A DNA stretch of 64,000 nucleotides from Verrucomicrobiota bacterium (GTDB taxonomy: Bacteria; Verrucomicrobiota; Verrucomicrobiia; Limisphaerales; JADLHS01). Positions 1-32,909 of this stretch are shown here, piece after piece. The notes beneath the pieces are model-generated. The model saw only the letters and a program-made list of their open reading frames with translations. It made no database searches and had not been told where the DNA came from. The position numbers were made by a program, and so were the translations under genes. How positions within the stretch are numbered: position 1 is the stretch's first letter; each line of letters starts with the position of its first letter. Location of the stretch: NCBI GenBank assembly GCA_039806955.1, contig JBDHQI010000003.1, positions 29,856 through 93,855 of the forward strand, given 5' to 3'.

Positions 1-1921
1 GTTCGTGCGCGGAAGACTCCATCGGCGGATGCTGCTTGCGCCAGTTCTCCTCCGCGATTTTGCCGTGCGCGACTGTGCTCGTGAGCACGAGGTCCATTTC
101 ACACTTCGGACATTTTCCGGGTTTGTCGGAGACCACATCGGCATGAACTGCCATCGGGCAGGTATAGAGCGTGGAAGGAATCGCGGCTGAAGTTGCAGAT
201 GGTTGAGGAATCGGCGGTGCTTCCATCACGGGAATGAGTGTCATGGCGCACTTGGGGCAGTTGCCGGGTTTCTCCGCGCGCACGTCATTGTGTTCGGGCA
301 TCGGGCAGGTGTAGTAAAGGAGCTTCCCGCCGGGTTGTAGTTTTTTCAGCGTCGCTTGAGACACGGGCACGAGCGTCATGGCGCACAGCGGGCACTTGCC
401 GGGTTGGTTGTATTCAATGGAGACGTGCTCCGGCATCGGGCAGATGTATTTGACGGTTGCGTTGGTGGCGGCGGAAGCCATGCCGGGCATTCCCTCGTGA
501 CCTGTTGCTGTCGCGCTTTCCTTGCCCGCCGATGTCGCCGGGCCGGATTCTTTTGGCTTCAACATCTTTTGGATGGCCTCGCGAAGTTGGCTCTCCGAAT
601 CCAACATGAATTGGCCGGACGTAACGATTCGTTCGCCTTCGTTCAATCCACTCAACACTTGATACATGTCACCCTCGGCCTGCGGACCGAGCGTGACGGT
701 GCGCGGATCGAACTTGCCGCCGTCCAACGCCACGAAAACGGTGGTCTTCTCACCGCTGCGCAAAATGGCCATGTCGGGCGCGAGCAACGCGGACGGTTCT
801 AACTCCGACATAACCTGAACCGTGGCAAACATTCCGGGTTTGAGGAAATAGCCGGGGTTGTGGAACTCCATCCGCACTTTTGCGGTGCGGGTTTTCTCGT
901 CCACATTCGGATAGATATAAGTCACCCGCCCACGGAACTCGCGGTCGTTCAGATACGAAAGTGTGACGGTCGCTTCCTGGCCGAGCTTGAGATAAACCAA
1001 ATCCTGTTCGTAAATCTGCGCCTGCACCCAGACCAGTCCCAAGTCAGCCAGCCGGTAAATCTTCATGCCGGCATCCACCATCTGGCCTTGGACCACCATT
1101 TTATCAGCTACAAATCCATCCTGCGGCGCGACGATTCGCAATGTCTTCGTCGCTTTCCGTGTCTTCTCCAGTTCGGCGATCTGCTCGTCTGAAATGTCGA
1201 AGAATTTCAATTTCGTCAGCGCGGAAGTTTTGAGTGCATCATTTCCCGCGCCCGCTTTGTTCGCGGGATCGGTGGCGAGCAGATACTCGACTTGCGCGCT
1301 GTAAAGCTCGGGCGAATAAATCTCGAACAGCGGATCGCCCTTCATCACCAGTTGCCCGGTGGCATTCACGTGAAGCTTTTCAATCCAGCCTTTGAACTTG
1401 GTCGTCACGTCCGCCAGCGCCGTCTCGTTATATTCAATCGCGCCGACAGTGCGAATGGCCCGGCGCAGCGGTCCTCGCGTGACGGTCGCGGTTCGGATTC
1501 CCATAGTCTGCGTGGTCACCGGGTCAACCGCGATGGCGGAAGATTCTGCCGCCGCCGCTTCATCTTCGTAAACCGCGACCATGTCCATGCCCATGCTGTC
1601 CTTGCCCGGCCCGGGCTTCACCTCGCCGGGATTCATGGTGGATTTGTAGTATTTAATCTTCCGTTCGCCGGACGTGGTAGGCGTGCCGCTTGCACCCGAT
1701 GCCTGTTTGCGAATGGGCGTGAGCTTCATGCCGCAAATCGGGCAGTTGCCGGGCGTGTCTTGAACGACCTGCGGGTGCATTCCGCAGGTGTAAAGGGTTT
1801 TGCCTTCCTTGGCGGACTCGCTCGTGACGGCGTGGTTGTGGCCGGTGGAACGTCCGGCGAAAAATGCGCCCACGCCAACTACGGCGATGGCAATAATGGC
1901 AACAATGGTCTTGGCTTTCAT
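1..1921 (-). CDS. RND efflux periplasmic adaptor (CusB/CzcB-type MFP) carrying 4 heavy-metal-binding CxxC modules; C-terminus runs off the window
   Basis: Not in ORF track because it leaves the window. My minus-strand translation from ATG 1921-1919 stays open to nt 1: MKAKTIVAIIAIAVVGVGAFFAG.. It has an N-terminal LYTCGMHPQVVQDTPGNCPICGMKL and an MFP core (VGAIEYNETALADVTTKFKGWIEKLHV; RIVAPQDGFVADKMVVQGQMV). Three C-terminal modules follow: KYICPMPEHV..PGKCPLCAMTL, YYTCPMPEHNDV..PGNCPKCAMTL, LYTCPMAVHADV..PGKCPKCEMDL. Confidence 0.85.
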   Translation of the reverse strand, partial: MKAKTIVAIIAIAVVGVGAFFAGRSTGHNHAVTSESAKEGKTLYTCGMHPQVVQDTPGNCPICGMKLTPIRKQASGASGTPTTSGERKIKYYKSTMNPGEVKPGPGKDSMGMDMVAVYEDEAAAAESSAIAVDPVTTQTMGIRTATVTRGPLRRAIRTVGAIEYNETALADVTTKFKGWIEKLHVNATGQLVMKGDPLFEIYSPELYSAQVEYLLATDPANKAGAGNDALKTSALTKLKFFDISDEQIAELEKTRKATKTLRIVAPQDGFVADKMVVQGQMVDAGMKIYRLADLGLVWVQAQIYEQDLVYLKLGQEATVTLSYLNDREFRGRVTYIYPNVDEKTRTAKVRMEFHNPGYFLKPGMFATVQVMSELEPSALLAPDMAILRSGEKTTVFVALDGGKFDPRTVTLGPQAEGDMYQVLSGLNEGERIVTSGQFMLDSESQLREAIQKMLKPKESGPATSAGKESATATGHEGMPGMASAATNATVKYICPMPEHVSIEYNQPGKCPLCAMTLVPVSQATLKKLQPGGKLLYYTCPMPEHNDVRAEKPGNCPKCAMTLIPVMEAPPIPQPSATSAAIPSTLYTCPMAVHADVVSDKPGKCPKCEMDLVLTSTVAHGKIAEENWRKQHPPMESSAHE

Positions 1922-1922
1922 A

Positions 1923-2345
1923 TCAGTGGGAGGATGGCGTCACCGAGTCGGAGGAATTGGTTGAGTTGTTCACGGACGGGGCAACCGTCCAGCCAGGAAT
2001 CGGCGGATGGCCGGGCGGCAAAGTCCGTTCCGGCACAGGTTCGTTTGTGCTTTTGGCGGCGCAGCAACCAGGATGATTCTCGCCGCTGCTGCCGCATTGT
2101 TCGTGGCCGGCTTTCATCTCGCCCGCAGGCACGAGGGCCATGCCGCACTTCGGGCAATCGCCCGGCTTGGCGCTCACCACGTCGGGGTGCATCGGACAGG
2201 TGTATTGCCCGCTGGCGACAGTTTTCGCCCGCACGTTTTGCAGGCGGGTTGGCACGTCGAAATACAGGCCCGCTGCCGCGCCGACAAAAATCGTCAATAC
2301 AAGAATGCCGAGAAACAGCCGGAGATTTTTGGAGAAGAAGTTCAT
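1923..2345 (-). CDS. membrane-anchored heavy-metal-binding-domain (HMBD) protein
   Basis: 140-aa ORF with an N-terminal TM (LRLFLGILVLTIFVGAAAGLY), then [25 protein letters not shown] and a Cys/His tail (HEQCGSSGENHPGCCAA). It lies between the tolC-like and MFP genes with 1-18 nt gaps. Confidence 0.7.
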   Translation of the reverse strand: MNFFSKNLRLFLGILVLTIFVGAAAGLYFDVPTRLQNVRAKTVASGQYTCPMHPDVVSAKPGDCPKCGMALVPAGEMKAGHEQCGSSGENHPGCCAAKSTNEPVPERTLPPGHPPIPGWTVAPSVNNSTNSSDSVTPSSH

Positions 2346-2363: not shown

Positions 2364-3788
2364 TTACATTCCGCCCCGACTCTTTTTATTCATGGAAGGT
2401 TGCGCGCTCTTTGGGGTGTTGCTGCTCACACTGCCGGCCATCGCCGCGCCCGTCGGGGGCATTCCACGGACGATCAAGGACAGTTCCGCCAAAACCACTT
2501 CGCGTTGCGCGGCGACTTCCACCTTGTCCAACTGAAAACCGAGCAACGTGCGTTCGGCGTCAATCACGTTGATGAACTCCGTCTGCCCGGACAGATAACT
2601 CGCCCGCGCGACTTCCAGCGACTTCAGCGCCTTGGGCACAAGCTGGTCGTTCAAGACCTCCAGGTTGCGCGTAGTCTCACGGTAGAGATACATTCGTTCA
2701 GTCACGTCCACCGCGAGTTTGATTTGTTCGTCGGACAAGCGCGCCTGCGTGGAACGCTTGCTGGCCTGCGCTTCGGCGATTTGCGCTGCGATTTTGTCAC
2801 GCCAGATGGGCAACGAAACAGTTCCGAGCGGACGATAGAGCGTGGGATTCATCTTCACGTCCGCCATCAAGCCGAGGGTGAAATCCGGCAAGCGCGACCG
2901 CGTGGCCAAAGTGATCGAGGCTTCGGCAGCACGCACGTCAGCCGCCATCGCTTTCAGTTGGGTGTTCTGCGCCAAGGCCGCTTCAAACACCTGATTGCCG
3001 GAAAGGTCCAGCGCGGTGGATTCGAATCGGCTGGGCATCGGTGGTTCGGGGTCAGTCCCGCCCAAGCCGAGCGCGGCTTTGAATTGAGCCATGAGCGCGC
3101 TACGCGAGTCTTCGAGATTGGCGATTTCCGTCTGGAGGCTGTCCTGTTCGATCTGGGCGCGCAGCACGTCCTGCAAGGTGGCTTTGCCGACTTCGTTTTG
3201 GGCGCGGGCGGATTTTTCCACTTCGTTCAAGAGTTGCAGCGTCTCGCGATCAACGCGGATTTTTTCCGCCAAGAAATAAAGCTGGTAATAGGCACGCTTC
3301 ACATCGAATGCGCTCGCGAGTGCCGCTGACTGAAACGTGAAATACCGGGATTGACTCTCCTCCGACGCGATCTGCGCGCCGACGCGCAGCTTGTCCGGCC
3401 ACGGAATAGCTCCCATCAGACCGGGCATGACGGACGTGACGATGTTTTGAATGTCCATCTGAAACGTCAACTGCGGGTCAGGCAGCGACCGCGCCTGGGT
3501 GATGCGTTCAATGGATGACAACCAATCGTAGTATGCCGCTTCCACCTTGGGCTGGTTGAGCAGCGCGAACGCGAGATAATTGCTCAAGCCGGACTCGCCG
3601 GTCAGTTCAGGCAACGCGGGCTTTTCACCGTGCGGTCGGTAACTGCTCGCCGCCTCTTGCGCCTGACGACGCGCGGCCTTCTCGGTTTTCGTGGGAATGC
3701 CCTTGCAACCGGCGAGCAGCAAACCAACGAGCACAAGACTGGTTGCGCCAGTGAGCCAGCGGCGATGAGATTTGTTTTCTGAATTCAT
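2364..3788 (-). CDS. TolC-family outer-membrane efflux lipoprotein (CusC/CzcC-like)
   Basis: 474-aa ORF with a signal peptide and lipobox (VGLLLAGC) and helical-repeat OMF-like composition. It is the first large gene of a tolC - HMBD - MFP string on the same strand. Confidence 0.85.
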   Translation of the reverse strand: MNSENKSHRRWLTGATSLVLVGLLLAGCKGIPTKTEKAARRQAQEAASSYRPHGEKPALPELTGESGLSNYLAFALLNQPKVEAAYYDWLSSIERITQARSLPDPQLTFQMDIQNIVTSVMPGLMGAIPWPDKLRVGAQIASEESQSRYFTFQSAALASAFDVKRAYYQLYFLAEKIRVDRETLQLLNEVEKSARAQNEVGKATLQDVLRAQIEQDSLQTEIANLEDSRSALMAQFKAALGLGGTDPEPPMPSRFESTALDLSGNQVFEAALAQNTQLKAMAADVRAAEASITLATRSRLPDFTLGLMADVKMNPTLYRPLGTVSLPIWRDKIAAQIAEAQASKRSTQARLSDEQIKLAVDVTERMYLYRETTRNLEVLNDQLVPKALKSLEVARASYLSGQTEFINVIDAERTLLGFQLDKVEVAAQREVVLAELSLIVRGMPPTGAAMAGSVSSNTPKSAQPSMNKKSRGGM

Positions 3789-3835: not shown

Positions 3836-3982
3836 CTAGTGACAAGAACCCTGATGCGTGGAATGATCGGCTGCGCCGTCGCCTGTGGAAGCGCATCCCG
3901 TCAAAAAGATCACGCCCGCGAGTGCTACCGCGAGCGCGATGAGAGCGAAATTGATTTTGGAAAGGTCTCGGATTGGTTTCAT
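3836..3982 (-). CDS. mini-lipoprotein; predicted mature 19-aa His/Cys-tailed peptide
   Basis: Internal ATG (3982) of the 86-aa track ORF gives MKPIRDLSKINFALIALAVALAGVIFLTGC/ASTGDGAADHSTHQGSCH. Lipobox LTGC. It sits between the promoter motif at 4103-4127 and the tolC-like gene. A paralogue-like ORF lies at 20525-20644. Confidence 0.5.
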   Translation of the reverse strand: MKPIRDLSKINFALIALAVALAGVIFLTGCASTGDGAADHSTHQGSCH

Positions 3983-4102: not shown

Positions 4103-4127
4103 ATTACGTTGTCGGAGACGGAATCCC
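4103..4127 (-). promoter_or_regulatory. ECF-type promoter candidate GGGATT-N13-CGTAAT
   Basis: Minus strand reads GAGGGATTCCGTCTCCGACAACGTAATCAAT. Geometry is the same as five other sites in the window. It lies 121 nt upstream of the 3982 start, ahead of the RND operon 1 genes. Confidence 0.55.
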
Positions 4128-4150: not shown

Positions 4151-4534
4151 TTAATGAAGCGGAGCGTATGGGACGGTGAGATAAACGTGGTGTGCGATGT
4201 ATTGGCTGGCCGCAAAATGCGCTTGCGTGCCCGATGCCGGATGGAAATGCACCTTCACGGATCTTCCTGGTTCAATCTCCTCGGGCCGAATCGGAATCCC
4301 GTTCTTCCAAAACTTTGTGCTCCTGTCCCACGCGAAGACAACAGGCTCACCCGGCTTCAACGGCAACAAGGTGAGACTTTGGTTTGTGAGATTTATGGAC
4401 TGGAGTGTGCCGTCGAAGCTCAAGCCGTGAATTGATCCGGGGTAGGCGCGGTGACTCGCGCAACCAGACCAAACCAAACCGGCCATGAGGAGAGTAAAGC
4501 CAGCGATCAGGAAATTCTTTCGCGTGGTTTTCAT
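4151..4534 (-). CDS. small lipoprotein, tandem paralogue of 4531-4872
   Basis: Start moved to MKTTRKNFLIAGFTLLMAGLVWSGC (lipobox). ATGA overlap with the upstream stop (4531-4534). It shares S-I-(N/E)-L-T-N..L.L...K....F.W..ST.F motifs with its neighbour. Confidence 0.6.
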   Translation of the reverse strand: MKTTRKNFLIAGFTLLMAGLVWSGCASHRAYPGSIHGLSFDGTLQSINLTNQSLTLLPLKPGEPVVFAWDRSTKFWKNGIPIRPEEIEPGRSVKVHFHPASGTQAHFAASQYIAHHVYLTVPYAPLH

Positions 4535-4872
4535 TTCTGATTTCGGTTGGCCTCGCTCCACCGCACTTCACGCAACACAAGTTTTCCGCTCTCTCTGCGG
4601 TAATACACCTTGATGGGCTGGCCTGCACGAAGTGAATTGGGCGATGTCTTTTGCCCGCCAACAAGAAAGCGCGTGGAATCCTTCCAGATGAAGATGCGAT
4701 TGGTCGCAGCCTTGGGTTCAGTCAGAACCAGAGTATGGTTCGTCAGCTCAATGCTTTGAACCACACCTTGAGCCGGATGCTGCACGGGCGGACGCGCCTG
4801 AGTCTCGAATGCCGCCAACGTCACGCCGAGCAGAATCAGAAAGCGAGTTAAAATGAGCGCGGGGAGTTTCAT
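4531..4872 (-). CDS. small secreted protein, tandem paralogue of 4151-4534
   Basis: Start moved to ATG 4872 (MKLPALILTRFLILLGVTLAAFETQA, signal peptide). The upstream part of the 173-aa track ORF is Arg/Gly-rich and looks non-coding. Confidence 0.6.
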   Translation of the reverse strand: MKLPALILTRFLILLGVTLAAFETQARPPVQHPAQGVVQSIELTNHTLVLTEPKAATNRIFIWKDSTRFLVGGQKTSPNSLRAGQPIKVYYRRESGKLVLREVRWSEANRNQK

Positions 4873-4919: not shown

Positions 4920-5222
4920 TCAGTGTTGCATCAATAACGTTGCGCCTTTTACCGGCTCGCTGCTTCCAACGCTTGTGTGATGGCCCGCGTTGTTGGTGGC
5001 GCAGGAGGTCGTGATCACCGCGAGCAACACGGCCAGCGCCGCCGCTTGGCACGCTTTGATTGCGCGCGGTGATCGAATTGTGCTTGCGGAGTTCATTGAT
5101 GGTTGCTCAATGAGATTGCTGTTTCCCGGCGTGGGAATCGGGCGGGACGCCGCCGCGCACATTGCCAGAACGAAGAGCGCTGCGAGCAGCGTCCACAGAA
5201 TTGCGATGAGCCAGATTCCCAT
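4920..5222 (-). CDS. small hydrophobic protein (or a 58-aa His-containing lipoprotein from an internal start)
   Basis: 100-aa ORF with two hydrophobic segments. The internal MNSASTIRSPRAIKACQAAALAVLLAVITTSC/ATNNAGHHTS..LLMQH would be a short lipoprotein. There is no homology anchor. Confidence 0.35.
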   Translation of the reverse strand: MGIWLIAILWTLLAALFVLAMCAAASRPIPTPGNSNLIEQPSMNSASTIRSPRAIKACQAAALAVLLAVITTSCATNNAGHHTSVGSSEPVKGATLLMQH

Positions 5223-5258: not shown

Positions 5259-5729
5259 TTACTTCAGCGGCGCAACTTCCACGTTTTTCTTCTCCATGCC
5301 TTTGGTGGCAACGCTGCTGCCCTTGCTCGTGTTGCAGCATGCGGCACTTTCCGCGCCGCATGACGAGCAAGTGTGGGTGGCAACGGATTGTTTGGCTTTG
5401 CCGTGGCCCACGATTTTCCAATCCGTTCCGCAGCCGTCGCAGAGGTGCGTCGAGACGCGGATGAGCGGCTTGTTTGCCCCTCGCGCGGAATAATCCACTC
5501 GCTCCGTCACTTTGTCTTTGCACTTTGCGCACGGCATCGCCGGGATTTCGGCAACCGCAGGAACAGGACTGTGATTCCGCTTATACTCATCGAGGAACTG
5601 GCGCTGTTTCGGCGAGGCAGTAATGCCATCGTCGCCCGTGGGTTTGTATTGGGCCTGTGCTGAACCGGCGAACAGGGACAGGGCAATGCCTGCCAGCGCC
5701 GCGATCAGGAGGTTGTTTGTGCGTTTCAT
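5259..5729 (-). CDS. secreted fusion protein: one ASPK repeat + 8-Cys domain + VAPLK tail
   Basis: Signal peptide MKRTNNLLIAALAGIALSLFAGSAQA, then GDDGITASPKQRQFLDEY. The Cys domain follows: PCAKCK..THLCDGCG..HGKA..THTCSSCGAESAACCNT..KGMEKK. It ends NVEVAPLK. Confidence 0.75.
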   Translation of the reverse strand: MKRTNNLLIAALAGIALSLFAGSAQAQYKPTGDDGITASPKQRQFLDEYKRNHSPVPAVAEIPAMPCAKCKDKVTERVDYSARGANKPLIRVSTHLCDGCGTDWKIVGHGKAKQSVATHTCSSCGAESAACCNTSKGSSVATKGMEKKNVEVAPLK

Positions 5730-5794
5730 AGTTTGCCTTTCGTTTTGTGGTGGTTTGTTTGTTGGTGTGATCCCTTTCGCCCGATGTAAATTGC

Positions 5795-6091
5795 CTATTT
5801 GCCGGTCCAGACAGTGACGGAGGGCGTCGCGTTGTTCGGCGCGTGCAACTCAATGAGCCGGGCAGCGCCGCCCTTGGCGGTCTTCGCTTCGTTGCGGGAA
5901 GGCGTTGCTGACCTGGACGTCCAGATGGTGACGGACGCCGTGGCATTGTTCGGCGCGTGGAGTTGAATCAACTGCGAAGCGCCGCCTTTGGCCGTCGAGG
6001 TTTCGGCGGCGGCGACAATTCCCGCGCTCGTGACGAGCAGAGCTGTTGCGATAGTGAGCCGGGCTAGCGCCGTGATTCGATTCGTTTTCAT
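5795..6091 (-). CDS. secreted protein with two tandem ~40-aa repeats
   Basis: Start moved to ATG 6091 (MKTNRITALARLTIATALLVTSAGIVAA). Repeats are AKGGASQLIQLHAPNNATASVTIWT and AKGGAARLIELHAPNNATPSVTVWT. Confidence 0.6.
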   Translation of the reverse strand: MKTNRITALARLTIATALLVTSAGIVAAAETSTAKGGASQLIQLHAPNNATASVTIWTSRSATPSRNEAKTAKGGAARLIELHAPNNATPSVTVWTGK

Positions 6092-6125
6092 ATTCGTGGG
6101 CTTTCGTCGTGAATTCATTCCGCCT

Positions 6126-6575
6126 CTACTTGAGCGGCGCGACCTCGATGGTTTCCGCCGCAGGCTTGTAACCCCGCGCGAGCCACGGAAACTGTTCAAT
6201 GGCCCTCGGGCTGGCCGCGTAAGCGCGATTCTTGAGCACCCTGGCAATCTCACTGTTCACGGATGCTGGTGTGGTCGTCGGCTTCGCGGTGTTGACGCGG
6301 GCCAACTGCGGGAACTGCTCCAACATGCGCGGGCTGGCGGCCAGCGCGCGGTTGTTCCTGATGTTGGCTGGAACGCTGTCGAAGCGTGTGCTTGATGCCG
6401 TCGTCGCCGACGACTGACGTGTCAGCCAGGGGAACTGCTCCTTCGCACGCGGACTGGCGGCGATGGCGCGGTTGGACAAGTCTTTGACCGAGAAGTCGGC
6501 GGCTTGGATGGTTGCGGTTGCGGTGAGGAGAGCGGCGGCGACCGCTCCCAGCAGAAGTGTTTGTGTCGTTTTCAT
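6126..6575 (-). CDS. secreted repeat protein (3x AASPR..EQFPxL) with IEVAPLK tail
   Basis: 149-aa ORF with a signal peptide ..ATATIQA. Repeats are RAIAASPRAKEQFPWL, RALAASPRMLEQFPQL and RAYAASPRAIEQFPWL. The C-terminus is ETIEVAPLK. Confidence 0.7.
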   Translation of the reverse strand: MKTTQTLLLGAVAAALLTATATIQAADFSVKDLSNRAIAASPRAKEQFPWLTRQSSATTASSTRFDSVPANIRNNRALAASPRMLEQFPQLARVNTAKPTTTPASVNSEIARVLKNRAYAASPRAIEQFPWLARGYKPAAETIEVAPLK

Positions 6576-6634: not shown

Positions 6635-6659
6635 AATACGTTCGCAGAGTGGAAATCCC
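6635..6659 (-). promoter_or_regulatory. ECF-type promoter candidate GGGATT-N13-CGTATT
   Basis: Minus strand reads AAGGGGATTTCCACTCTGCGAACGTATTAAAG, 60 nt upstream of start 6575. Confidence 0.55.
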
Positions 6660-6761: not shown

Positions 6762-7022
6762 TTAACTCACCGCAATCAATGATACCTTTTCCCCTTGCGG
6801 GCCGCGCGCCGTGCCCAGCGCGTGGGCATCCAGTGTCGGAACGCCATCAACGAGGAACAGGTAACGATGGTGGCCGTGATGGAGCGGAATCTGGATCGTC
6901 CAGCCGCCATCGGGCTGGCGTTGCATCGGATGCGAGGTGTGATTCCAGTCATTGAAATCCCCCGTCACAAATACCGCTCCGGCTTGGGCGGATCGGTGGA
7001 ACAAGCTGACTGGTTTGCTCAT
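6762..7022 (-). CDS. stand-alone CBM48 / AMPK-beta glycogen-binding-domain-like (E-set) protein
   Basis: Start moved to ATG 7022 (MSKPVSLFHR..). Motif AVFVTGDFNDWNHTSHPMQRQPDGGWTIQIPLHHGHHRYLFLVDGVPTLD fits the xVxVxGxFNxW...W....L.pG.y.Y.f.VDG pattern. No signal peptide. Confidence 0.7.
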   Translation of the reverse strand: MSKPVSLFHRSAQAGAVFVTGDFNDWNHTSHPMQRQPDGGWTIQIPLHHGHHRYLFLVDGVPTLDAHALGTARGPQGEKVSLIAVS

Positions 7023-7140
7023 CCGTTTCGCGGAGTAGCAGTTTGTCGGGAAGCATGAACCCGGTGAGCGCCGAGATGTTTCAGCTTCCACGAGATCAAT
7101 GTCCGTCGTTGCGTAGTTCGGTTGCATAACTCTATCCATG

Positions 7141-7165
7141 ACTACGCCACTCCCGACTCCCGCCC
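7141..7165 (-). promoter_or_regulatory. weak variant of the ECF-type motif (GGGCGG-N13-CGTAGT)
   Basis: Minus strand reads AGGGCGGGAGTCGGGAGTGGCGTAGTCATGG. Spacing is correct (13 nt) and it lies 119 nt upstream of start 7022, but the -35-like hexamer is degenerate. Confidence 0.3.
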
Positions 7166-7223
7166 TTGCCGAAGAAATGGACGCTTGATTGTGAACGGGG
7201 AGAAACTGGACCAATGAAGGGCG

Positions 7224-8534
7224 TCAACGGCTGGAGATTTCTTCCACCATCGCCGTCCAGGTGGAGAGTTCGCGCGACCCTGCGAAACGTCGGCGCAAAT
7301 TTCCCTGCGCATCAATCAGCGCGTAGGTCGGAACTTCTTGCACGTTGAAGCGGAAGACGAGAGAACCGTTCGCGTCCAATAGCACCGGATGATTGATGCT
7401 CATTCGCGAGATCAGCTCCTTGAGAGCAGGCTTGTTCGCCGCGCAGTTGGCGTGGGGGTCAGCAGAGTGCGCGTGATTGTGTTGATGCTCGTGTCCAGCG
7501 CCGCAGTCGTCTTGCGGGCCGACGGCTGGGTCAAACGCGATGCCGACGACTGTCAGTCGCCGGGACTCCTGTTCCTGCAATTGCTTGAGCGTTGCCACAT
7601 CATCGAAACTTGCTGCATTGCCGACTTTCCAAAAGCAAAGCAGAACTGCCTTGCCCTGAAAGTCGGAGAGATGGACTAATCTTCCCTCCGAATCTTCGAG
7701 AGCAAAATCTTTGGCGGGCAATTTGCTGGCAATGATACGTGGCGGCGGGGACGGCTGCGGAAATTCTGCGCGATGCAGCATCCACCACTCGCGCCACTCT
7801 TGCGCGCCGTGACGGATCGCGTCGAGATTGAAAGGCGGAAGTGGGGCTTCATCTGAGCGAGTGAATTTCGGCAGCGCGTGGCTCGAACGGATTCCGAAAT
7901 CCAACCCGGTTGTCTTGCGCAACAGCAAGGCCGCTTGCACGGTCACACGCGGATCGGGATCATCGAGAAGATGAACCGCCAGCGGCACATCGTTGGAACT
8001 GGCAACGCGCTGAAGTTGCTGGAGTGCGAGCACGCGCACGGCTGGGTCGGCATCGTTCGACTGCTGTCGGAGCAAGATCATTGAGTTCGCGCTCCTGGCT
8101 TCTGCCAAAATGTTCATCGCTGGTTCGCGCACATTCAAGTCGGGATCGTTAGCCGCTTCGTTCACGATTGCTTCCATTGCGCCAGCCAGTGCCGGTTCTG
8201 TGTGAAGGCGCGTCTTGAGGTGTTCCATTACAAACTGCTGCACGGTTAGATTGCCACTCCGCCACATTCGCTCCAATGTCGGCGCTCGGTCTGACGTTCC
8301 CTCGACCAGTTCTGATAGCACCGCACCGGACGGCGCATCGGAGCGCAGAGCCAAGGTTATGACCAATTCGTGTCGCACGGGTTTCCAGCAGAGGACGACG
8401 ACTAAGGAGAAAAGCGCGAAGCCTATCAACCACCATCGGTCGCGCGGACCAATCTTCGGCCACCGTTGTCGCGAGGACTCTGAAGCGTTGGTGGGCGCTG
8501 TCGAAACAGTTTGTTTGGCTAATGGCGCTGACAT
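7224..8534 (-). CDS. membrane-anchored HEAT-repeat + thioredoxin-fold (TlpA/redoxin-like) protein lacking the CxxC, with a His-rich insertion
   Basis: 436-aa ORF with a TM (WWLIGFALFSLVVVLCW). HEAT-like DPDLNVREPAMNIL, DADPAVRVLALQQL and DPDPRVTVQAALLL. The redoxin-like C-terminus has KAVLLCFWKVGNAAS where W-C-x-x-C is expected. There is a CGAGHEHQHNHAHSADPHANC loop. Confidence 0.75.
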   Translation of the reverse strand: MSAPLAKQTVSTAPTNASESSRQRWPKIGPRDRWWLIGFALFSLVVVLCWKPVRHELVITLALRSDAPSGAVLSELVEGTSDRAPTLERMWRSGNLTVQQFVMEHLKTRLHTEPALAGAMEAIVNEAANDPDLNVREPAMNILAEARSANSMILLRQQSNDADPAVRVLALQQLQRVASSNDVPLAVHLLDDPDPRVTVQAALLLRKTTGLDFGIRSSHALPKFTRSDEAPLPPFNLDAIRHGAQEWREWWMLHRAEFPQPSPPPRIIASKLPAKDFALEDSEGRLVHLSDFQGKAVLLCFWKVGNAASFDDVATLKQLQEQESRRLTVVGIAFDPAVGPQDDCGAGHEHQHNHAHSADPHANCAANKPALKELISRMSINHPVLLDANGSLVFRFNVQEVPTYALIDAQGNLRRRFAGSRELSTWTAMVEEISSR

Positions 8535-8718: not shown

Positions 8719-9294
8719 TCACTCATTCAAACCCCAATGATTCACGCCTGCACCCTGCTGGATTACGCGCACGGCATCCAGGTCCTCGCCAACATACTTT
8801 GACAATTCAAAGGTGCGGGCTGGGTGATGGGGTGCGTGACCTGACAAATAGTAGTTCACAAAGCAGGCCAGACCGCTGACGCGGGCCGTCTCGCGCAAGT
8901 CGCGCTCCACAAGTGTCTGCGACGGTGTCGTCCCTGCCACAAGCGGAAGCAGAATCACGAGAGCGCCATCCGGCTGCGTGCGCCGCGTGAGCCAGTGGCA
9001 AAGCCAATCTTGCACCGGACGCGGCAGCATGTGTGGATTGCTCGGGCAACAAAATACGACGTCAGCCTCGGCGGCGATGCCCACAGCACGGGCAAAAAGA
9101 CTCCGCTCCGTCAGTGCGTCGAAGCGCCACCAGAAATCACGGAATTCAAATTCCACAGTCAAACTGCGGATCACGCCGAGATACACTTCCTTCGCCGCGC
9201 GGAAGGCCGCATCGTCATCGTATGCCAGTGCCACGGTGATTGGTAAATCGTCCTTTGGTTTGCAGGTCGCGGCGATGGATTTCGGAAGCATCAT
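8719..9294 (-). CDS. hypothetical cytoplasmic protein
   Basis: 191-aa ORF with balanced composition, co-oriented within the operon. It ends ..GVNHWGLNE. No family recognised. Confidence 0.5.
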   Translation of the reverse strand: MMLPKSIAATCKPKDDLPITVALAYDDDAAFRAAKEVYLGVIRSLTVEFEFRDFWWRFDALTERSLFARAVGIAAEADVVFCCPSNPHMLPRPVQDWLCHWLTRRTQPDGALVILLPLVAGTTPSQTLVERDLRETARVSGLACFVNYYLSGHAPHHPARTFELSKYVGEDLDAVRVIQQGAGVNHWGLNE

Positions 9295-9334
9295 AATTTG
9301 TTACGCACCAAGCGGACGAATCCCTCTCACCCAA

Positions 9335-11023: not shown

Positions 11024-11464
11024 CTACTTGGGCGACATTCCCTCGGTGGGCGGCGCTCCCCGATGCGTGGCGCAGCAAAACACAGAGTCGCTCCCACACG
11101 CGTCGCATGTATGCTCGACCTGTTCCTTCGCGCCAAAACCCCGGCCCGTCACGGTGATCGTGGATTTGCAACCCGGACAATAATGCCGATGCTCGAACGG
11201 CGTGAAGAATCGGTTTCGTGGCCGGTTCACGTCGGCGAACAGGACGGTCTTGCATTTGGCGCACGCCATCGCGACGGCGTCGCCTTTTTTGAGATTCAGT
11301 TCGTCACCGGTGTTCTTGACGTGATACAGCGGAATGAATTTGCGTTCTTCATAAACACGCGTGGTTGATTTGCCTCCCGATGACGCGCAACCTGTGACCG
11401 CCAATCCCACCGTGAGGAGTGCCGCCCAAGCGGCGAGATGCTTAAAGTGCCGTGTGATCTTCAT
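11024..11464 (-). CDS. 8-Cys periplasmic lipoprotein (paralogue of 14656-15117 and 5259-5729)
   Basis: Start moved to ATG 11464 (MKITRHFKHLAAWAALLTVGLAVTGC). Cys domain is ACAKCK..RHYCPGCKSTITVTGRGFG..EHTCDACGSDSVFCCATH..PPTEGMSPK. Confidence 0.75.
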   Translation of the reverse strand: MKITRHFKHLAAWAALLTVGLAVTGCASSGGKSTTRVYEERKFIPLYHVKNTGDELNLKKGDAVAMACAKCKTVLFADVNRPRNRFFTPFEHRHYCPGCKSTITVTGRGFGAKEQVEHTCDACGSDSVFCCATHRGAPPTEGMSPK

Positions 11465-11538: not shown

Positions 11539-11865
11539 TTATACGATCAACACGGAGTTCACCCCTCTACTATCGGCTGTCGCCGTCCCATTTGTCGCCG
11601 GGTTGCTGACAACCTGCCCGTCAACCACCAAGGCATAATCATAACGCCCCGGTGACAGGAACAATGCGCGCGCCCAGCGACCGCGACCTGCCGAACACAT
11701 CGGTGTGGCGGTTGGATTCCAGCCGTTGAATGTTCCCACAATGCTGACGTGATGAACGAAAGCCCGCTGGAGTTTGAACAGAACACACCGCAACTTCGGC
11801 TTGGTTGCGGTGCATCCCGTTTTCACGTGTGCTTGCAGTGATTCGTCATGTCGCGTTGCGCGCAC
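11539..11865 (-). CDS. stand-alone CBM48 / AMPK-beta GBD-like protein
   Basis: HVSIVGTFNGWNPTATPMCSAGRGRWARALFLSPGRYDYALVVDGQVVSNP. It starts 5 nt after the upstream stop. No signal peptide. Confidence 0.7.
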   Translation of the reverse strand: MRATRHDESLQAHVKTGCTATKPKLRCVLFKLQRAFVHHVSIVGTFNGWNPTATPMCSAGRGRWARALFLSPGRYDYALVVDGQVVSNPATNGTATADSRGVNSVLIV

Positions 11866-11869
11866 TGCG

Positions 11870-12478
11870 TCAGTGCATGTGCGCCGAGTGGTCTGCGTGT
11901 TCAGGTGCTCCCGAAGCGGTGGCTTTGACGAACTGGCCGCAGCGGGCCATCGCTTTGCCCATGTAGGGATTGCTCACGGTTGTTCCGGTTTGCAGCCAAC
12001 TGGCTTTTGCCATCGGGCAATGCACCTGCCGATAGATGCCGGACACAGTTGAATCCTTGGCGGCGAATTGAATGAGCGATTCACTCAACGGCTTGAACGC
12101 CTCGCGTGCGGCAACCAGGTCTTTGGCTTTGGCCACGGCTTCCGCCTGCTGTCCAATCGTCGCCGAAAAGGTATTCGCCTTGTCTTCCTTCACCGACTTG
12201 GCAATTGCCTGCGCGCTCGTTGTGATACCTTCGAGCGAATCAGCGGCCAGCGCGGTCTGAATCTGGATGTATCCGTCGAAAACCGCCGAGACCGGCTGCG
12301 GCAACTTGCCGGTGGCGGTGGTTGCCTGCGCGTTGTGCGACTCGTGCCCGGACATTTGCGAACAGCCCGGCATCGTGCTCGGGGTTTCGCCGCCGCAACA
12401 ACCGGCTTGGGCTGCAAACGCGGGCACGGCGATGAACCCAGCTACAAGGACGGAGAGAACGAATGTTTGTTTTTTCAT
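11870..12478 (-). CDS. DUF3347-like periplasmic metal-cluster protein
   Basis: Start moved to ATG 12478 (MKKQTFVLSVLVAGFIAVPAFA). N-terminal GCCGGETPSTMPGCSQMSGHESH, a helical core, then HCPMAKASWLQ...NPYMGKAMARCG and a His-rich tail (EHADHSAHMH). ATGA overlap with the upstream sigma gene. Confidence 0.7.
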   Translation of the reverse strand: MKKQTFVLSVLVAGFIAVPAFAAQAGCCGGETPSTMPGCSQMSGHESHNAQATTATGKLPQPVSAVFDGYIQIQTALAADSLEGITTSAQAIAKSVKEDKANTFSATIGQQAEAVAKAKDLVAAREAFKPLSESLIQFAAKDSTVSGIYRQVHCPMAKASWLQTGTTVSNPYMGKAMARCGQFVKATASGAPEHADHSAHMH

Positions 12479-13375: not shown

Positions 13376-13678
13376 TCAGCCAATGGTTAGAACCGCGTTC
13401 GCTCCGCCGTGTGGGTTTGCCACGGTCTCTTTGGCGTTCGGGTCGTCCACCCAATTGCCATCCACCACGAGGCGGTATTCGTAGCGCCCCGGCGGCAGTG
13501 TGAGTTCTTTCACCCAACGACCGTTACCGAGAGCAACCATTGGCGTTGCGCCCGGTTGCCAGTCGTTGAACGAACCGGCGATGCACACGGTCTTGGCTTC
13601 GCTGCTCTGAAACTCAAACCGGCAGGCACGTTTGCCGGAAGCGGAAGTCGTTGCGGGATTTTTGTTCTTTCTGGCCAT
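13376..13678 (-). CDS. stand-alone CBM48 / AMPK-beta GBD-like protein
   Basis: Start moved to ATG 13678 (MARKNKNPATT..). CRFEFQSSEAKTVCIAGSFNDWQPGATPMVALGNGRWVKELTLPPGRYEYRLVVDGNWVDDPNA. The promoter motif at 13800-13824 supports the shorter start. Confidence 0.75.
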   Translation of the reverse strand: MARKNKNPATTSASGKRACRFEFQSSEAKTVCIAGSFNDWQPGATPMVALGNGRWVKELTLPPGRYEYRLVVDGNWVDDPNAKETVANPHGGANAVLTIG

Positions 13679-13799
13679 GCGGATTCCTTTCTTGCTCGCG
13701 GGTGAGCATTCCCCTGTGCGATGGGAACTTGAAATCCGGTGCTGGACCAGTCGCGCAGAGGAATTTTCACGAGCGTATTCATAAACTTCGTCGAACCTT

Positions 13800-13824
13800 G
13801 ATACGCCGCAGAACAACGCATCCC
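13800..13824 (-). promoter_or_regulatory. ECF-type promoter candidate GGGATG-N13-CGTATC
   Basis: Minus strand reads CAGAGGGATGCGTTGTTCTGCGGCGTATCAAGG, 122 nt upstream of start 13678. Confidence 0.5.
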
Positions 13825-13909
13825 TCTGCAAACACGGAGAAATCGTGCCGCCCGGTCGGAATGGAAAGCTCCGTCCGTTCTTGCGTGCTGCCGCATTTCG
13901 CGCGTCAAC

Positions 13910-14655: not shown

Positions 14656-15117
14656 TTACTTTTTCTCCATGCCTTCGGTGGGCTTGGCGCTCTTGGTCGT
14701 AGCGCAGCAAAATGCCGAGTCATCGCCACATGCCTTGCAACTGTGCTTGAGTTCGGTGATGTCGCCTTTAGCGTGGCCGGTGACGGTGATGGTGGAATTG
14801 CAGCCGGCGCACGCGTGCGTGCCGATCAACTCCTTCGGCTGGCCGCCTTCCATCAGAAGTTGCGCGCCTTTCGTGCCCTGCTTGACGCGGGTAACCCACA
14901 CGGTTTTGCACTTACTGCACACCATCGCCATCGTGTCGTCGTCCTTGAGTGCCGCTGCGTCCTTGGTGGTTTTCACTTCCTTGAGCAGCATGAGTTGATG
15001 CTCGCCGCCTTTCATGGGCTTCATCGGCTCATCCGCGCGGGCGTTGAGCGACATGGCCAGAGCGAACGCGACGCCGAGGCCGAGGATTGTTTTGCAGACT
15101 GACTTGTTTGTTTTCAT
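14656..15117 (-). CDS. 8-Cys secreted protein (family exemplar)
   Basis: Signal peptide MKTNKSVCKTILGLGVAFALAMSLNARA. Cys domain is VCSKCKTVW..THACAGCNSTITVTGHAKG..KHSCKACGDDSAFCCATT..PTEGMEKK. Confidence 0.75.
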   Translation of the reverse strand: MKTNKSVCKTILGLGVAFALAMSLNARADEPMKPMKGGEHQLMLLKEVKTTKDAAALKDDDTMAMVCSKCKTVWVTRVKQGTKGAQLLMEGGQPKELIGTHACAGCNSTITVTGHAKGDITELKHSCKACGDDSAFCCATTKSAKPTEGMEKK

Positions 15118-16272: not shown

Positions 16273-16300
16273 TGTTCAGAAACTGAAACTGGAAAAGTTT

Positions 16301-16912: not shown

Positions 16913-16933
16913 TTTCAACCAAGTCACCCTACG

Positions 16934-24482: not shown

Positions 24483-24495
24483 GATGGCATCCTGT

Positions 24496-27932: not shown

Positions 27933-27957
27933 ATTACGCCGGTGCGCGGCAAATCCC
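27933..27957 (-). promoter_or_regulatory. ECF-type promoter candidate GGGATT-N13-CGTAAT
   Basis: Minus strand reads TGAGGGATTTGCCGCGCACCGGCGTAATACAAG, 39 nt upstream of start 27894. It heads the RND operon 2 gene string. Confidence 0.55.
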
Positions 27958-30287: not shown

Positions 30288-30692
30288 TCACTTCAATGGC
30301 GCGATCTGGTAAGCGCCGTTGCGCTCGTCGAGAAACTGACGGAGTTTCGGCGAGGCTGTGATACCGTCATCGCCGGTCGCGCGATAGCCGACCTTGACGA
30401 CTGCTGTTCCGGGCATGCTCTCCACACCACGGCTGTCATTGATGAATTGCCGCAGTTTCGGCGAAGCGGTTATCCCATCCACGCCGGTGGCTCGATAACC
30501 GACGGACGCGACGGTGGCAGACTTCGCGCCTTTCACCATCGGCTTGCCGCGCTCATTCATAAACTGGCGCAGTTTGGGAGACGCCGCGATGCCATCATCG
30601 CCCACGGTGTTGTGTTGAGCCTGGCTTTGGCTGGTCGAGGCGAGCAAAGCGACTGCGGCGGCTGCAATCAGAATCAATTTTGTATTTTTCAT
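30288..30692 (-). CDS. secreted repeat protein (3x DGI(T/A)ASPKLRQF) with YQIAPLK tail
   Basis: Start moved to ATG 30692 (MKNTKLILIAAAAVALLASTSQSQA). Repeats are GDDGIAASPKLRQFMNERG, GVDGITASPKLRQFINDSRG and GDDGITASPKLRQFLDERNG. It ends AYQIAPLK. Confidence 0.75.
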   Translation of the reverse strand: MKNTKLILIAAAAVALLASTSQSQAQHNTVGDDGIAASPKLRQFMNERGKPMVKGAKSATVASVGYRATGVDGITASPKLRQFINDSRGVESMPGTAVVKVGYRATGDDGITASPKLRQFLDERNGAYQIAPLK

Positions 30693-32558: not shown

Positions 32559-32909
32559 TTACTTCAGCGGCGCGATTTGAACTTCAGCCTTGCTGACGGC
32601 GTTGGCGCGGAGCGCGGCCTCGTAGCGCGAGTCTTTGGGCGACATCGTGGGGCGCGGCGCATGGGCCAGGTCAATACTCGGACCAGTGCTGGGCACAGAG
32701 CGGAAACTGCGGGCGAGTTCCCACGCTTTGGCGTTTCCTGCCGGGCGGTCCAGCGCCAGATTCACGTCGCTGGTGGCGGCGGGGACTTTCTTGAGCGAAT
32801 CGGCGAGGGCTTTGGCCTTCGGCGAATAGAGGGGTTCACCGGCATTGGCGTTGGCCGCGAGCGTGAACACACCGACAGCGGCAACTGCGAGGAGGATCAT
32901 TTTTTTCAT
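32559..32909 (-). CDS. secreted divergent SPK/AKA-repeat protein with VQIAPLK tail
   Basis: Start moved to ATG 32909 (MKKMILLAVAAVGVFTLAANANA). Degenerate repeats are YSPKAKALADSLKKVP, GNAKAWELARSFRSVP and MSPKDSRYEAALRANA. It ends AEVQIAPLK. Confidence 0.7.
   Translation of the reverse strand: MKKMILLAVAAVGVFTLAANANAGEPLYSPKAKALADSLKKVPAATSDVNLALDRPAGNAKAWELARSFRSVPSTGPSIDLAHAPRPTMSPKDSRYEAALRANAVSKAEVQIAPLK

What the first reader, a model, noticed from the sequence alone, without database searches (positions are those of the whole stretch)
5259..6575. Left-hand secreted cluster: a fusion protein physically links the ASPK-repeat, 8-Cys and APLK-tail families
One promoter motif (6635-6659) precedes three secreted proteins. 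These are the ASPR-repeat/APLK protein (6575-6126), a 2x AKGGA..LI.LHAPNNAT.SVT.WT repeat protein (6091-5795), and 5729-5259.

The last combines in one chain a single GDDGITASPKQRQFLDEY repeat, the complete 8-Cys domain and the VEVAPLK tail. Domain fusion (Rosetta-stone logic) argues that the repeat/APLK proteins and the 8-Cys proteins act in the same periplasmic process.
Basis: seen in the sequence. Interest (0 to 1): 0.65.

Follow-up and report, generated by a model that had tools for sequence, protein, structure and literature searches.

The report
Motif-sharing secreted proteins beside copper pump
Three small secreted proteins of a Verrucomicrobia bacterium, one a cysteine-rich likely metal binder, share portable peptide motifs and a stress promoter with an adjacent copper/silver efflux pump; the family is conserved but has never been described.

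Summary
On the minus strand, 6575-6126, 6091-5795 and 5729-5259 encode three signal-peptide proteins behind a promoter-like motif at 6635-6659. The last protein combines one GDDGITASPK motif, eight cysteines and a VEVAPLK C-terminus.

The fusion is not a local accident. More than 100 full-length homologues (50-99% identity) from Limisphaerales/Verrucomicrobiia metagenomes keep the same architecture. The family is combinatorial. The N-module is either the ASPK motif or the KGGA motif of the middle gene. The core carries MxCxxC, HxCxxC, HxCxxC, CC and GM. The ΦxΦAPΦK tail is optional.

The motif GGGATT-N13-CGTAWT occurs six times in the window against 0.3 expected. Each copy heads an operon, including an ECF sigma/anti-sigma/PF13801 operon and two heavy-metal efflux operons. 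It recurs at orthologous positions in other genomes.

In all ten distinct related loci with enough flank, the fusion gene lies upstream of an outer-membrane factor, HMBD, CusB-like and CusA-like operon. The four pumps examined keep the CusA Cu(I)/Ag(I) methionine triad.

Most likely these are periplasmic soft-metal-binding proteins, with motif-only partners, serving a Cus-type pump. No biochemistry has been done, and the role of the tail is unknown. No Pfam, NCBIfam or PDB relative exists.

The parts
6635..6659 (-). ECF-sigma-type promoter motif GGGATTTCCACTCTGCGAACGTATT (GGGATT-N13-CGTAWT), 60 nt upstream of the first ATG
   Evidence: The pattern has 6 hits against 0.30 expected in the window, all heading operons. 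It is conserved upstream of the orthologous gene in L006, L007, L009 and L011. In L008, L012 and L013 it lies directly before the fusion gene.
6126..6575 (-). ASPRx3 protein: signal peptide, three NRAxAASPRxxEQFPxLAR units, IEVAPLK C-terminus
   Evidence: The search found 280 homologues. Of the top 120, 112 have the AP[LVI]K end, and 104 of those 112 show exactly three repeats by regex (range 1-4 over all 120); none has a Cys core. AF2 predicts three local helical units (pLDDT 80-88) joined by disordered linkers, pTM 0.24.
5795..6091 (-). AKGGAx2 protein: signal peptide and two AKGGAxxLIxLHAPNNATxSVTxWT units; ends TGK
   Evidence: There are 48 homologues. 41 end in Lys and 6 carry an APLK-type tail.
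5259..5729 (-). ASPK / 8-Cys / APLK protein (the 'fusion'), 156 aa
5583..5648 (-). ASPK motif, residues 28-49 (YKPTGDDGITASPKQRQFLDEY)
   Evidence: It matches the repeats of 30288-30692 at up to 86% identity. AF2 predicts a helix at residues 40-53 with pLDDT about 81.
5295..5537 (-). 8-Cys core, residues 65-145: MxCxxC, HxCxxC, HxCxxC, CC, TKGM
   Evidence: M65, C70, H95, C97, C100, C121, C131 and C132 are invariant, and C67, H119, C124, G144 and M145 are at least 90% conserved, in 78 sequences. Met and His sit at position -2 of the first two CxxC in 190 of 190 family members. AF2 predicts four beta strands. There is a weak TFIIS zinc-ribbon match, E 0.005.
5262..5282 (-). C-terminal tail VEVAPLK (ΦxΦAPΦK-COOH)
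   Evidence: A153 and P154 are at least 90% conserved while the preceding linker varies in length. 105 of 120 homologues carry the tail. AF2 gives pLDDT below 50 here.
4920..5222 (-). Small lipoprotein or membrane protein ending PVKGATLLMQH (KGGA-like motif); same operon
4531..4872 (-). Small secreted protein conserved in the cluster
   Evidence: Conserved in L001, L003 and L005-L009. No Pfam or NCBIfam hit.
4151..4534 (-). Lipoprotein conserved in the cluster; ends VPYAPLH
4103..4127 (-). Second copy of the promoter motif, heading the efflux operon
   Evidence: It lies at the orthologous position in L001, L005, L008, L009 and L012.
3836..3982 (-). Small lipoprotein with a His/Cys-rich C-terminus (start codon uncertain)
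2364..3788 (-). Outer-membrane efflux protein (CusC-like)
   Evidence: Pfam OEP, E 9e-36. It is 95% identical to the L008 orthologue.
1923..2345 (-). HMBD heavy-metal-binding-domain protein
   Evidence: Pfam HMBD, E 1e-14.
1..1923 (-). CusB-like membrane fusion protein with several HMBD motifs; runs off the window edge, and the CusA-like pump is expected beyond it
   Evidence: 33% identical to E. coli CusB, E 3e-55. In L006, L008, L009 and L012 the next gene is 48-52% identical to CusA and keeps M573, M623 and M672.
7224..8534 (-). Membrane-anchored HEAT-repeat plus thioredoxin-fold protein without CxxC and with a His-rich insert; syntenic neighbour and candidate docking partner (inferred)
9300..9324 (-). 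Promoter motif copy (1 mismatch) heading 8719-9294 and the HEAT-redoxin gene
11024..11464 (-). 8-Cys paralogue (lipoprotein type; ends TEGMSPK, no tail)
14656..15117 (-). 8-Cys paralogue with an MKGGEHQLMLL N-module; ends TEGMEKK, no tail
30288..30692 (-). ASPKx3 protein ending YQIAPLK; first gene of an operon with an anti-sigma-like gene (29873-30217) and a PF13801 gene (29372-29869)
   Evidence: Promoter motif at 30739-30763. The same gene order occurs in L014 and L015.
32559..32909 (-). SPK protein ending VQIAPLK; first gene of an operon with an anti-sigma-like gene (32155-32493), a PF13801 gene (31666-32154) and an ECF sigma gene (31073-31747)
   Evidence: Promoter motif at 32964-32988.
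27933..27957 (-). Promoter motif copy heading 27604-27894 and a second heavy-metal RND operon (21234-26957)

Best explanation
The three genes are the promoter-proximal part of an operon that belongs to an ECF-sigma heavy-metal stress regulon of a Limisphaerales (Verrucomicrobiota) bacterium. The operon lies directly upstream of, and is co-regulated with, a cusCBA-type Cu(I)/Ag(I) efflux operon.

The 'fusion' is the conserved founding form of an uncharacterised family of small Sec-exported proteins. Its all-beta, zinc-ribbon-like core carries three [M/H]xCxxC motifs, a CC pair and a conserved GM.

I infer that this core binds soft metal ions, Cu(I)/Ag(I) being most likely. It would do so in the periplasm, as a buffer or chaperone for the Cus-type pump. 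No CusF homologue is detectable in the cluster to fill that role.

The ASPK helix motif, the KGGA motif and the ΦxΦAPΦK C-terminus are portable short linear motifs. The Cys-less proteins ASPRx3, AKGGAx2 and ASPKx3 are multivalent arrays of the same kinds of motif. I infer that the motifs dock these proteins onto a shared envelope partner. Candidates are the membrane-anchored HEAT-repeat/thioredoxin-fold protein, the CusB/HMBD proteins and the PF13801 sensor.

Shown: gene structure, conservation, modular architecture, shared promoter, synteny, and the CusA-type signature of the neighbouring pump.

Inferred: export to the periplasm, metal binding, metal identity, and the docking role of the motifs.
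For: Architecture is conserved in more than 100 homologues.

Modules are swapped combinatorially. Among 190 core-bearing proteins the N-module is ASPK in 125, KGG in 40 and other in 25. The tail is present in 117.

The signature residues M65, H95 and the cysteines are invariant, and H119 and M145 are at least 90% conserved. MxCxxC is the Cu(I) site motif of HMA/CopZ/Atx1 domains (established knowledge).

The core shows weak zinc-ribbon similarity and AF2 predicts beta strands.

The promoter motif has 6 hits against 0.3 expected, each heading an operon. These include the sigma/anti-sigma/PF13801 operon and both RND operons. The motif is conserved at orthologous sites in other genomes.

The fusion gene lies upstream of an OEP, HMBD, CusB-like, CusA-like operon in all ten distinct related loci with enough flank.

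The four downstream pumps examined (L006, L008, L009, L012) are 48-52% identical to E. coli CusA, and all three Met ligands are retained. The L008 pump, the one scanned, scores above the NCBIfam CusA/CzcA cut-off. The window's own left end encodes a CusB-like protein.

BLAST finds no CusF homologue.

AF2 predicts ASPRx3 as three local helical units joined by disordered linkers, which fits a multivalent peptide-motif protein.

ECF groups with a PF13801 neighbour are linked to heavy-metal stress (PMC7826278).
Against: There is no biochemical or expression evidence.

Cysteines exported to an oxidising periplasm may form four structural disulfides instead of binding metal.

The adjacent thioredoxin-fold protein lacks a CxxC site, so it cannot be the reductase that keeps them reduced.

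The AF2 model is of low confidence (pLDDT 60) and has no structural neighbour.

The repeat motifs contain no Cys, His or Met, so they are not metal ligands themselves.

No partner for the motifs was identified.

The window also holds a non-Cus RND pump and mer-like genes, so the metal is not pinned down.

The CusA gene of this window lies beyond its edge and is inferred from synteny.
Confidence: 0.5

Rival explanations
1. Regulatory ligands. The motif-bearing proteins are periplasmic signalling or titration partners of the ECF system. Their ASPK/SPK motifs or APLK tails would bind the PF13801 (CpxP/Spy-like) protein or the short periplasmic tail of the anti-sigma factor. This would give feedback on sigma activity. 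The 8-Cys core would report metal or redox state.
For: ASPKx3-APLK and SPK-APLK are the first genes of operons that continue with an anti-sigma-like gene, a PF13801 gene and, in one case, the ECF sigma gene. The order ASPKx3, anti-sigma, PF13801 recurs in L014 and L015. By analogy with established knowledge, CpxP-type proteins are titrated by periplasmic clients, and C-terminal peptides activate DegS in the sigma-E pathway.
Against: The fusion gene itself is always beside the efflux operon, not beside the sigma operon. The invariant [M/H]xCxxC signature points to direct metal chemistry. No PDZ-type or other C-terminus-reading domain was found in the regulon.
Confidence: 0.2
2. Envelope anchoring or sorting. 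ΦxΦAPΦK-COOH is a localisation signal. It might mediate covalent attachment through the terminal Lys (as Braun's lipoprotein is linked to peptidoglycan) or beta-strand addition to an outer-membrane component. The proteins would then be structural, disulfide-rich envelope components made under stress.
For: The terminal Lys is strongly conserved: 103 of 120 fusion homologues, 115 of 120 ASPRx3 and 41 of 48 AKGGAx2 end in K. The tail is conserved while the preceding linker varies. The same tail occurs on four otherwise different protein types. The tail is enriched 4 against 0.005 expected.
Against: Tail-less paralogues and orthologues are common. The tail has no transmembrane segment or basic cluster like known sorting signals. 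No sortase, exosortase or L,D-transpeptidase gene is seen in the window parts examined. NCBIfam has no matching signal model.
Confidence: 0.15
3. Accidental or recent fusion, or non-coding artefact.
For: One relative (P0108) shows a broken reading frame.
Against: There are hundreds of intact homologues with the same architecture at 50-99% identity. P0108 reads through several frames of the same locus, as expected from assembly indels. GC3 exceeds GC2 in all three genes.
Confidence: 0.01

Closest known systems
CusF, the periplasmic Cu(I)/Ag(I) chaperone of the E. coli cusCFBA system
   Same: It is a small Sec-exported protein encoded with a CusC/CusB/CusA-type pump. Its proposed role is periplasmic metal hand-off or buffering.
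   Different: No sequence similarity was found and there is no CusF Pfam hit. CusF is an OB-fold using Met/His/Trp ligands. Here the core is cysteine-rich with zinc-ribbon-like strands, plus extra peptide motifs and a conserved C-terminal tail.
HMA-domain metallochaperones (CopZ/Atx1), MxCxxC motif
   Same: The first site M65-x-C67-x-x-C70 has the same motif, and two further HxCxxC sites follow. The motif is invariant across the family.
   Different: HMA is a cytoplasmic beta-alpha-beta-beta-alpha-beta fold with one site. This protein is exported, is predicted all-beta, and has three sites plus CC. The Pfam HMA model is matched only at E 0.064 in 2 of 78 members.
C4 zinc ribbons (TFIIS type)
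   Same: It has CxxC-x26-CxxC spacing with beta strands between the knuckles. There are weak profile matches (E 0.005 to PDB TFIIS chains) and sub-threshold Pfam zinc-ribbon hits.
   Different: All matches are below curated thresholds. The protein is exported rather than nucleic-acid associated. It has a second half-site, CxxC-x6-CC. No structural match was found.
CnrYXH / ECF20-derived heavy-metal ECF systems (ECF281, ECF290, ECF291)
   Same: An ECF sigma is paired with a small membrane anti-sigma and a PF13801-type protein, and controls metal efflux operons.
   Different: The gene order differs, and each operon begins with an extra APLK-tailed motif protein. ECF group membership was not determined.
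SilE/PcoE and Csp1 periplasmic metal sponges or stores
   Same: They are small exported accessory proteins of copper/silver resistance loci.
   Different: SilE/PcoE use Met/His motifs in disordered chains. Csp1 is a Cys-lined four-helix bundle. There is no sequence or predicted fold similarity here.

Membership tests
CusF (PF11604 CusF_Ec) | Sequence match to the CusF OB-fold with the H-x(n)-W-x-M-x-M metal site | tested here: not met
   None of the cluster proteins scanned at E up to 1 or 0.01 hits this Pfam family. BLASTP of E. coli CusF against 35 window proteins gives no meaningful hit.
HMA domain (PF00403) | MxCxxC metal-binding motif | tested here: met
   M65, C67 and C70 are present. 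Met at position -2 is found in 190 of 190 members.
HMA domain (PF00403) | Ferredoxin-like beta-alpha-beta-beta-alpha-beta fold and a profile match above threshold | tested here: not met
   Pfam HMA is matched only at E 0.064 in 2 of 78 members. AF2 predicts four strands and no helices in the core.
Zinc ribbon (TFIIS-type C4) | Two CxxC knuckles flanking a three-stranded sheet | tested here: inconclusive
Zinc ribbon (TFIIS-type C4) | Bound Zn(II) coordinated by four Cys | not testable with these tools
   This needs metal analysis of purified protein.
Known C-terminal sorting signals (PEP-CTERM, LPXTG, GlyGly-CTERM and similar) | Signature motif followed by a hydrophobic transmembrane segment and a basic cluster, with a matching NCBIfam/TIGRFAM model | tested here: not met
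   The protein ends one residue after AP-Φ, with no hydrophobic segment. No NCBIfam hit.
Braun-lipoprotein-type peptidoglycan attachment | C-terminal Lys | tested here: met
   The sequence ends in K in 103 of 120, 115 of 120 and 41 of 48 homologues of the three genes.
Braun-lipoprotein-type peptidoglycan attachment | Covalent link of the Lys epsilon-amine to peptidoglycan by an L,D-transpeptidase; lipobox and coiled-coil body | not testable with these tools
   No lipobox or coiled coil is present in the three proteins. Linkage needs muropeptide mass spectrometry.
ECF sigma regulon (heavy-metal type, ex-ECF20) | ECF sigma with regions 2 and 4, adjacent membrane anti-sigma, and a PF13801 neighbour | tested here: met
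   Sigma70_r2 and r4_2 are found in 31073-31747. PF13801 is matched by Pfam in 29372-29869, and its paralogue 31666-32154 was not scanned against Pfam. The anti-sigma match is weak, E 2.5e-4, below cut-off.
ECF sigma regulon (heavy-metal type, ex-ECF20) | Shared -35/-10 promoter upstream of the sigma operon and of target operons | tested here: met
   GGGATT-N13-CGTAWT has 6 hits against 0.30 expected, all upstream of operons including the sigma operon. It is conserved in other genomes. Which of the three ECF sigmas in the window reads it was not tested.
CusCBA-type Cu(I)/Ag(I) efflux (neighbouring operon) | CusA Met triad M573/M623/M672 and a CusA/CzcA family match | tested here: met
   The triad is kept in the L006, L008, L009 and L012 pumps at 48-52% identity. 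TIGR00914 scores 1126 bits against a cut-off of 701. In this window the pump is beyond the edge. CusB-like and CusC-like genes are present.

The most novel reading that the evidence does not exclude
ΦxΦAPΦK-COOH, together with the ASPK and KGGA motifs, could be a previously unknown peptide 'address' system of the Verrucomicrobia envelope. In this reading a dedicated receptor or enzyme reads the conserved C-terminal tail. For example, it might attach the terminal lysine covalently to the cell wall, or dock the proteins onto the efflux machinery. This would assemble a set of metal-stress proteins at one site. The Cys-less repeat proteins would act as multivalent scaffolds or competitors.
Probability: 0.15. 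Interest if true: 0.8.

Novelty: new variant of a known kind. Interest (0 to 1): 0.55.

Why it matters
Periplasmic handling of copper and silver is understood mainly from proteobacterial CusF, CopC, PcoE and SilE. This cluster suggests that Verrucomicrobia, which are abundant in soil, freshwater and wastewater, use an unrelated cysteine-rich exported protein family beside an otherwise canonical Cus pump.

The family is built from swappable short motifs and a conserved C-terminal tail that are also shared with cysteine-free repeat proteins. If this is confirmed, three things follow:
- It would add a new metal-binding fold.
- It would define the regulon and promoter of a verrucomicrobial ECF sigma factor.
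- It might reveal a new C-terminal recognition signal.

It also gives names and testable roles to several hundred 'hypothetical proteins' in metagenomes.

Tried and rejected
- Pfam and NCBIfam scans of the five motif proteins and of relatives gave only sub-threshold hits.
- The PDB sequence profile search gave only weak TFIIS zinc-ribbon matches.
- The afdb50 library was unavailable.
- The search for related loci with the broad alignment failed for lack of a conserved stretch. A narrower alignment worked.
- BLAST of E. coli CusF found no relative in the window.
- A sigma-54 reading of the upstream TGGCA...TTTCC was considered and dropped. The GG-N10-GC spacing does not fit, and the GGGATT-N13-CGTAWT pattern recurs instead.
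- A RiPP-precursor reading of the repeat proteins was rejected. They have Sec-type signal peptides and no modifying enzymes nearby.
- The thioredoxin-fold neighbour was considered as the reductase for the cysteines. This was rejected because it lacks CxxC in all homologues examined.
- No DNA-level tandem repeats, no Rfam families and no convincing intrinsic terminators between the genes were found.
- Two literature searches found no description of the family.
Full report
**1. Observation**

The minus strand of 5259-6575 carries three consecutive ORFs exactly as described.

- ORF 6575-6126 (149 aa) has a signal-peptide-like N-terminus (MKTTQTLLLGAVAAALLTATATIQA), three units of consensus xNRA[ILY]AASPRxxEQFPxLAR, and ends IEVAPLK.
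- ORF 6091-5795 (98 aa) has a signal peptide and two units AKGGAxxLIxLHAPNNATxSVTxWT. The two copies are 77% identical in DNA. Seven of the twelve differing codons are synonymous. They are therefore old, selected repeats and not a DNA-level tandem array.
- ORF 5729-5259 (156 aa) has four parts:
  - a signal peptide, residues 1-26;
  - YKPTGDDGITASPKQRQFLDEY, residues 28-49;
  - cysteines at 67, 70, 97, 100, 121, 124, 131 and 132;
  - VEVAPLK, residues 150-156.

In all three genes GC3 exceeds GC2.

The window holds paralogues of each element:
- two further 8-Cys proteins, at 14656-15117 and 11024-11464;
- an ASPKx3 protein ending QIAPLK, at 30288-30692;
- an SPK protein ending VQIAPLK, at 32559-32909.

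The pattern [VIL]AP[LIV]K-stop occurs four times in the six-frame translation, against 0.005 expected.

**2. The fusion is an old, conserved architecture**

A search of 5.8 billion proteins returned 239 hits. The best 120 are almost all full length at 50-99% identity. Where they carry a name, it is Verrucomicrobia MAGs. Eighty-one of the 120 show one ASPK motif, eight Cys and an AP[LVI]K end by simple regular expressions. Most of the remainder are truncated or minor variants.

An exhaustive HMMER search of 1.84 billion cluster representatives found 449 at E no greater than 1e-3.

The only apparent split form, P0108, reads through several frames of the same locus on a 799-kb contig. It is an assembly or gene-calling artefact.

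**3. The family is modular**

Among 190 retrieved proteins with the Cys core, the N-terminal module is:
- the ASPK motif in 125;
- a KGG[A]xxLLxL motif in 40, which is the same motif that is duplicated in the middle gene;
- something else in 25.

The tail is present in 117 of the 190. The tail-less forms usually stop right after the conserved TKGMEKK.

Stand-alone ASPKx3 proteins with the tail form many clusters.

The AKGGAx2 family has 48 hits. Six carry an APLK-type tail and 41 end in Lys.

The ASPRx3 family has 280 hits. Of the top 120, 112 carry the tail. Nearly all show three repeats (104 of the 112 tail-bearing members by regex), and none has a Cys core.

Three short motifs are thus shuffled among otherwise different exported proteins:
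- an ASP[KR]-started helix;
- the KGGA motif;
- the ΦxΦAPΦK C-terminus.

The ASPR and ASPK units share only ΦAASP[KR] and are distinct subtypes.

**4. Structure-level evidence**

In an alignment of 78 homologues, M65, C70, H95, C97, C100, C121, C131 and C132 are invariant. C67, H119, C124, G144, M145, A153 and P154 are at least 90% conserved. Met and His occupy position -2 of the first two CxxC in 190 of 190 members.

The signature is MxCxxC, HxCxxC, HxCxxC, CC, GM. From established knowledge, MxCxxC is the Cu(I) site motif of HMA/CopZ/Atx1 domains. The fold here is different, however.

AF2 gives mean pLDDT 60. It predicts:
- a helix at residues 40-53 for the ASPK motif;
- four beta strands between residues 72 and 121;
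- a disordered tail.

AF2 of ASPRx3 gives pLDDT 68 and pTM 0.24. It shows three local helical units (pLDDT 80-88) joined by disordered linkers. This is the layout of a multivalent peptide-motif protein rather than a globular domain.

**5. Regulation**

The sequence at 6635-6659 fits GGGATT-N13-CGTAWT. With at most one mismatch this pattern has six hits in the window, against 0.30 expected. All are on the minus strand and just upstream of a gene. The six sites and what they head are:

| Site | Heads |
|---|---|
| 4103-4127 | small lipoprotein, OEP, HMBD, CusB-like |
| 6635-6659 | this cluster |
| 9300-9324 | 8719-9294 and the HEAT/thioredoxin-fold gene |
| 27933-27957 | a second heavy-metal RND operon |
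| 30739-30763 | ASPKx3, anti-sigma-like, PF13801 |
| 32964-32988 | SPK-APLK, anti-sigma-like, PF13801, ECF sigma 31073-31747 |

The motif has the form of an ECF promoter. Its presence before a sigma operon suggests autoregulation.

It recurs at orthologous positions in other genomes:
- before ASPRx3 in L006, L007, L009 and L011;
- directly before the fusion gene in L008, L012 and L013, where the first two genes are absent;
- before the efflux operon in L001, L005, L008, L009 and L012;
- before ASPKx3 in L013 and L014.

No terminator-like site separates the three genes.

ECF groups with a PF13801 neighbour (ECF281, ECF290) and the CnrH group (ECF291) are linked to heavy-metal stress in the ECF reclassification paper (PMC7826278).

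**6. Genomic context**

In all ten distinct related loci with enough flank, the fusion gene lies upstream of, and on the same strand as, an OEP, HMBD, CusB-like, CusA-like operon. The same set of small lipoproteins and secreted proteins separates them.

The order ASPRx3, AKGGAx2, fusion is kept in L006, L007 and L009-L011. L008 has the fusion alone. L001 and L003 carry two tandem 8-Cys genes, with ASPRx3 further downstream.

The four downstream pumps examined (L006, L008, L009, L012) are 48-52% identical to E. coli CusA and retain M573, M623 and M672. The L008 pump, the one scanned, scores above the NCBIfam CusA/CzcA cut-off.

In this window, the sequence 1-1923 encodes a CusB-like protein with several HMBD motifs. 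The pump itself lies beyond the left edge. The window's second RND pump (21234-24482) lacks the Met triad.

BLAST detects no CusF relative.

**7. Interpretation**

Shown:
- the three proteins and their paralogues form a network of shared motifs;
- they are conserved;
- they are driven by one promoter type together with the sigma system and two metal pumps;
- they are syntenic with a Cus-type pump.

Inferred:
- the proteins are periplasmic;
- the Cys core binds soft metal, Cu(I)/Ag(I) being most likely, and serves the pump as a buffer or chaperone;
- the motifs dock onto a common partner.

The best partner candidate on context alone is the membrane-anchored HEAT-repeat/thioredoxin-fold protein 7224-8534. 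It lacks CxxC but carries a His-rich insert in all homologues.

The rivals are a regulatory role at the anti-sigma/PF13801 sensor and an anchoring or sorting role for the Lys-terminated tail. These are not mutually exclusive with metal binding.

**8. Novelty**

No Pfam, NCBIfam or PDB family covers any of the three proteins. Two literature searches found no description.

The kind of system is known: accessory exported proteins of a Cus-type pump under an ECF sigma. The protein family, its motif-shuffling design and the conserved C-terminal tail are new. The family appears restricted to Limisphaerales/Verrucomicrobiia. The two odd taxon labels are probably mis-binned contigs.

Noticed in passing
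window 7224-8534 (-); L003 5139-6506, L008 8073-9338, L009 7174-8496, L013 12270-13478: The HEAT-repeat plus thioredoxin-fold protein has no CxxC active site (LLCFWKVGNAASF). It carries a His-rich insert (DDCGAGHEHQHNHAHSADPHANC). Both features are shared by all homologues looked at. It appears redox-dead, probably metal-binding, and membrane-anchored facing the periplasm.
   Followed up: partly
window 4920-5222 (-): The small lipoprotein in the same operon ends PVKGATLLMQH, a KGGA-type motif. The L003 orthologue ends PVKGATLLMDHSR.
   Followed up: partly
window 4151-4534 (-): This lipoprotein of the cluster ends VPYAPLH, which resembles the APLK tail. More distant orthologues (L001, L003) end HRTVH instead.
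   Followed up: no
P0303 (365-kb metagenome contig): In a close relative, the signal peptide and first residues of ASPRx3 are fused in frame to the AKGGAx2 body. This implies a deletion between the adjacent genes.
   Followed up: no
window 6762-7214, 11539-11865, 13376-13831 (-): Three single-domain AMPK1_CBM/CBM48-like proteins without signal peptides sit next to ECF sigma, DUF3347 and 8-Cys genes. The arrangement is conserved in L001, L003 and L006-L009. Their role in a metal regulon is unexplained.
   Followed up: partly
window 33081-33932 (-); L013 7051-7836: A secreted retropepsin-like aspartic protease lies directly upstream of the SPK-APLK operon. A homologue lies next to ASPKx3 in L013. 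It may process the motif proteins.
   Followed up: no
window 12475-13341, 13910-14575, 31073-31747 (-): The window holds three ECF sigma genes. Which one reads the GGGATT-N13-CGTAWT promoters was not resolved. 12475-13341 has a 100-residue N-terminal extension.
   Followed up: no
window 15774-17446 (+): This stretch holds a mer-like module: MerR regulator, MerT-HMA fusion and a zf_CopZ protein. With two RND operons, the window looks like a multi-metal resistance island.
   Followed up: partly
L007 (labelled Hyphomicrobiales), P0061 (labelled Fimbriimonadaceae): The taxon labels conflict with L007's 75-93% protein identity and P0061's 60% identity to Limisphaerales sequences. The contigs are probably mis-binned.
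   Followed up: no
window 27604-27894 (-): A 96-aa secreted Cys-containing protein (CITDGEKLG...KLCCKGC) heads the second RND operon. Homologues sit just upstream of DUF3347 and the fusion gene in L012 and L013.
   Followed up: no
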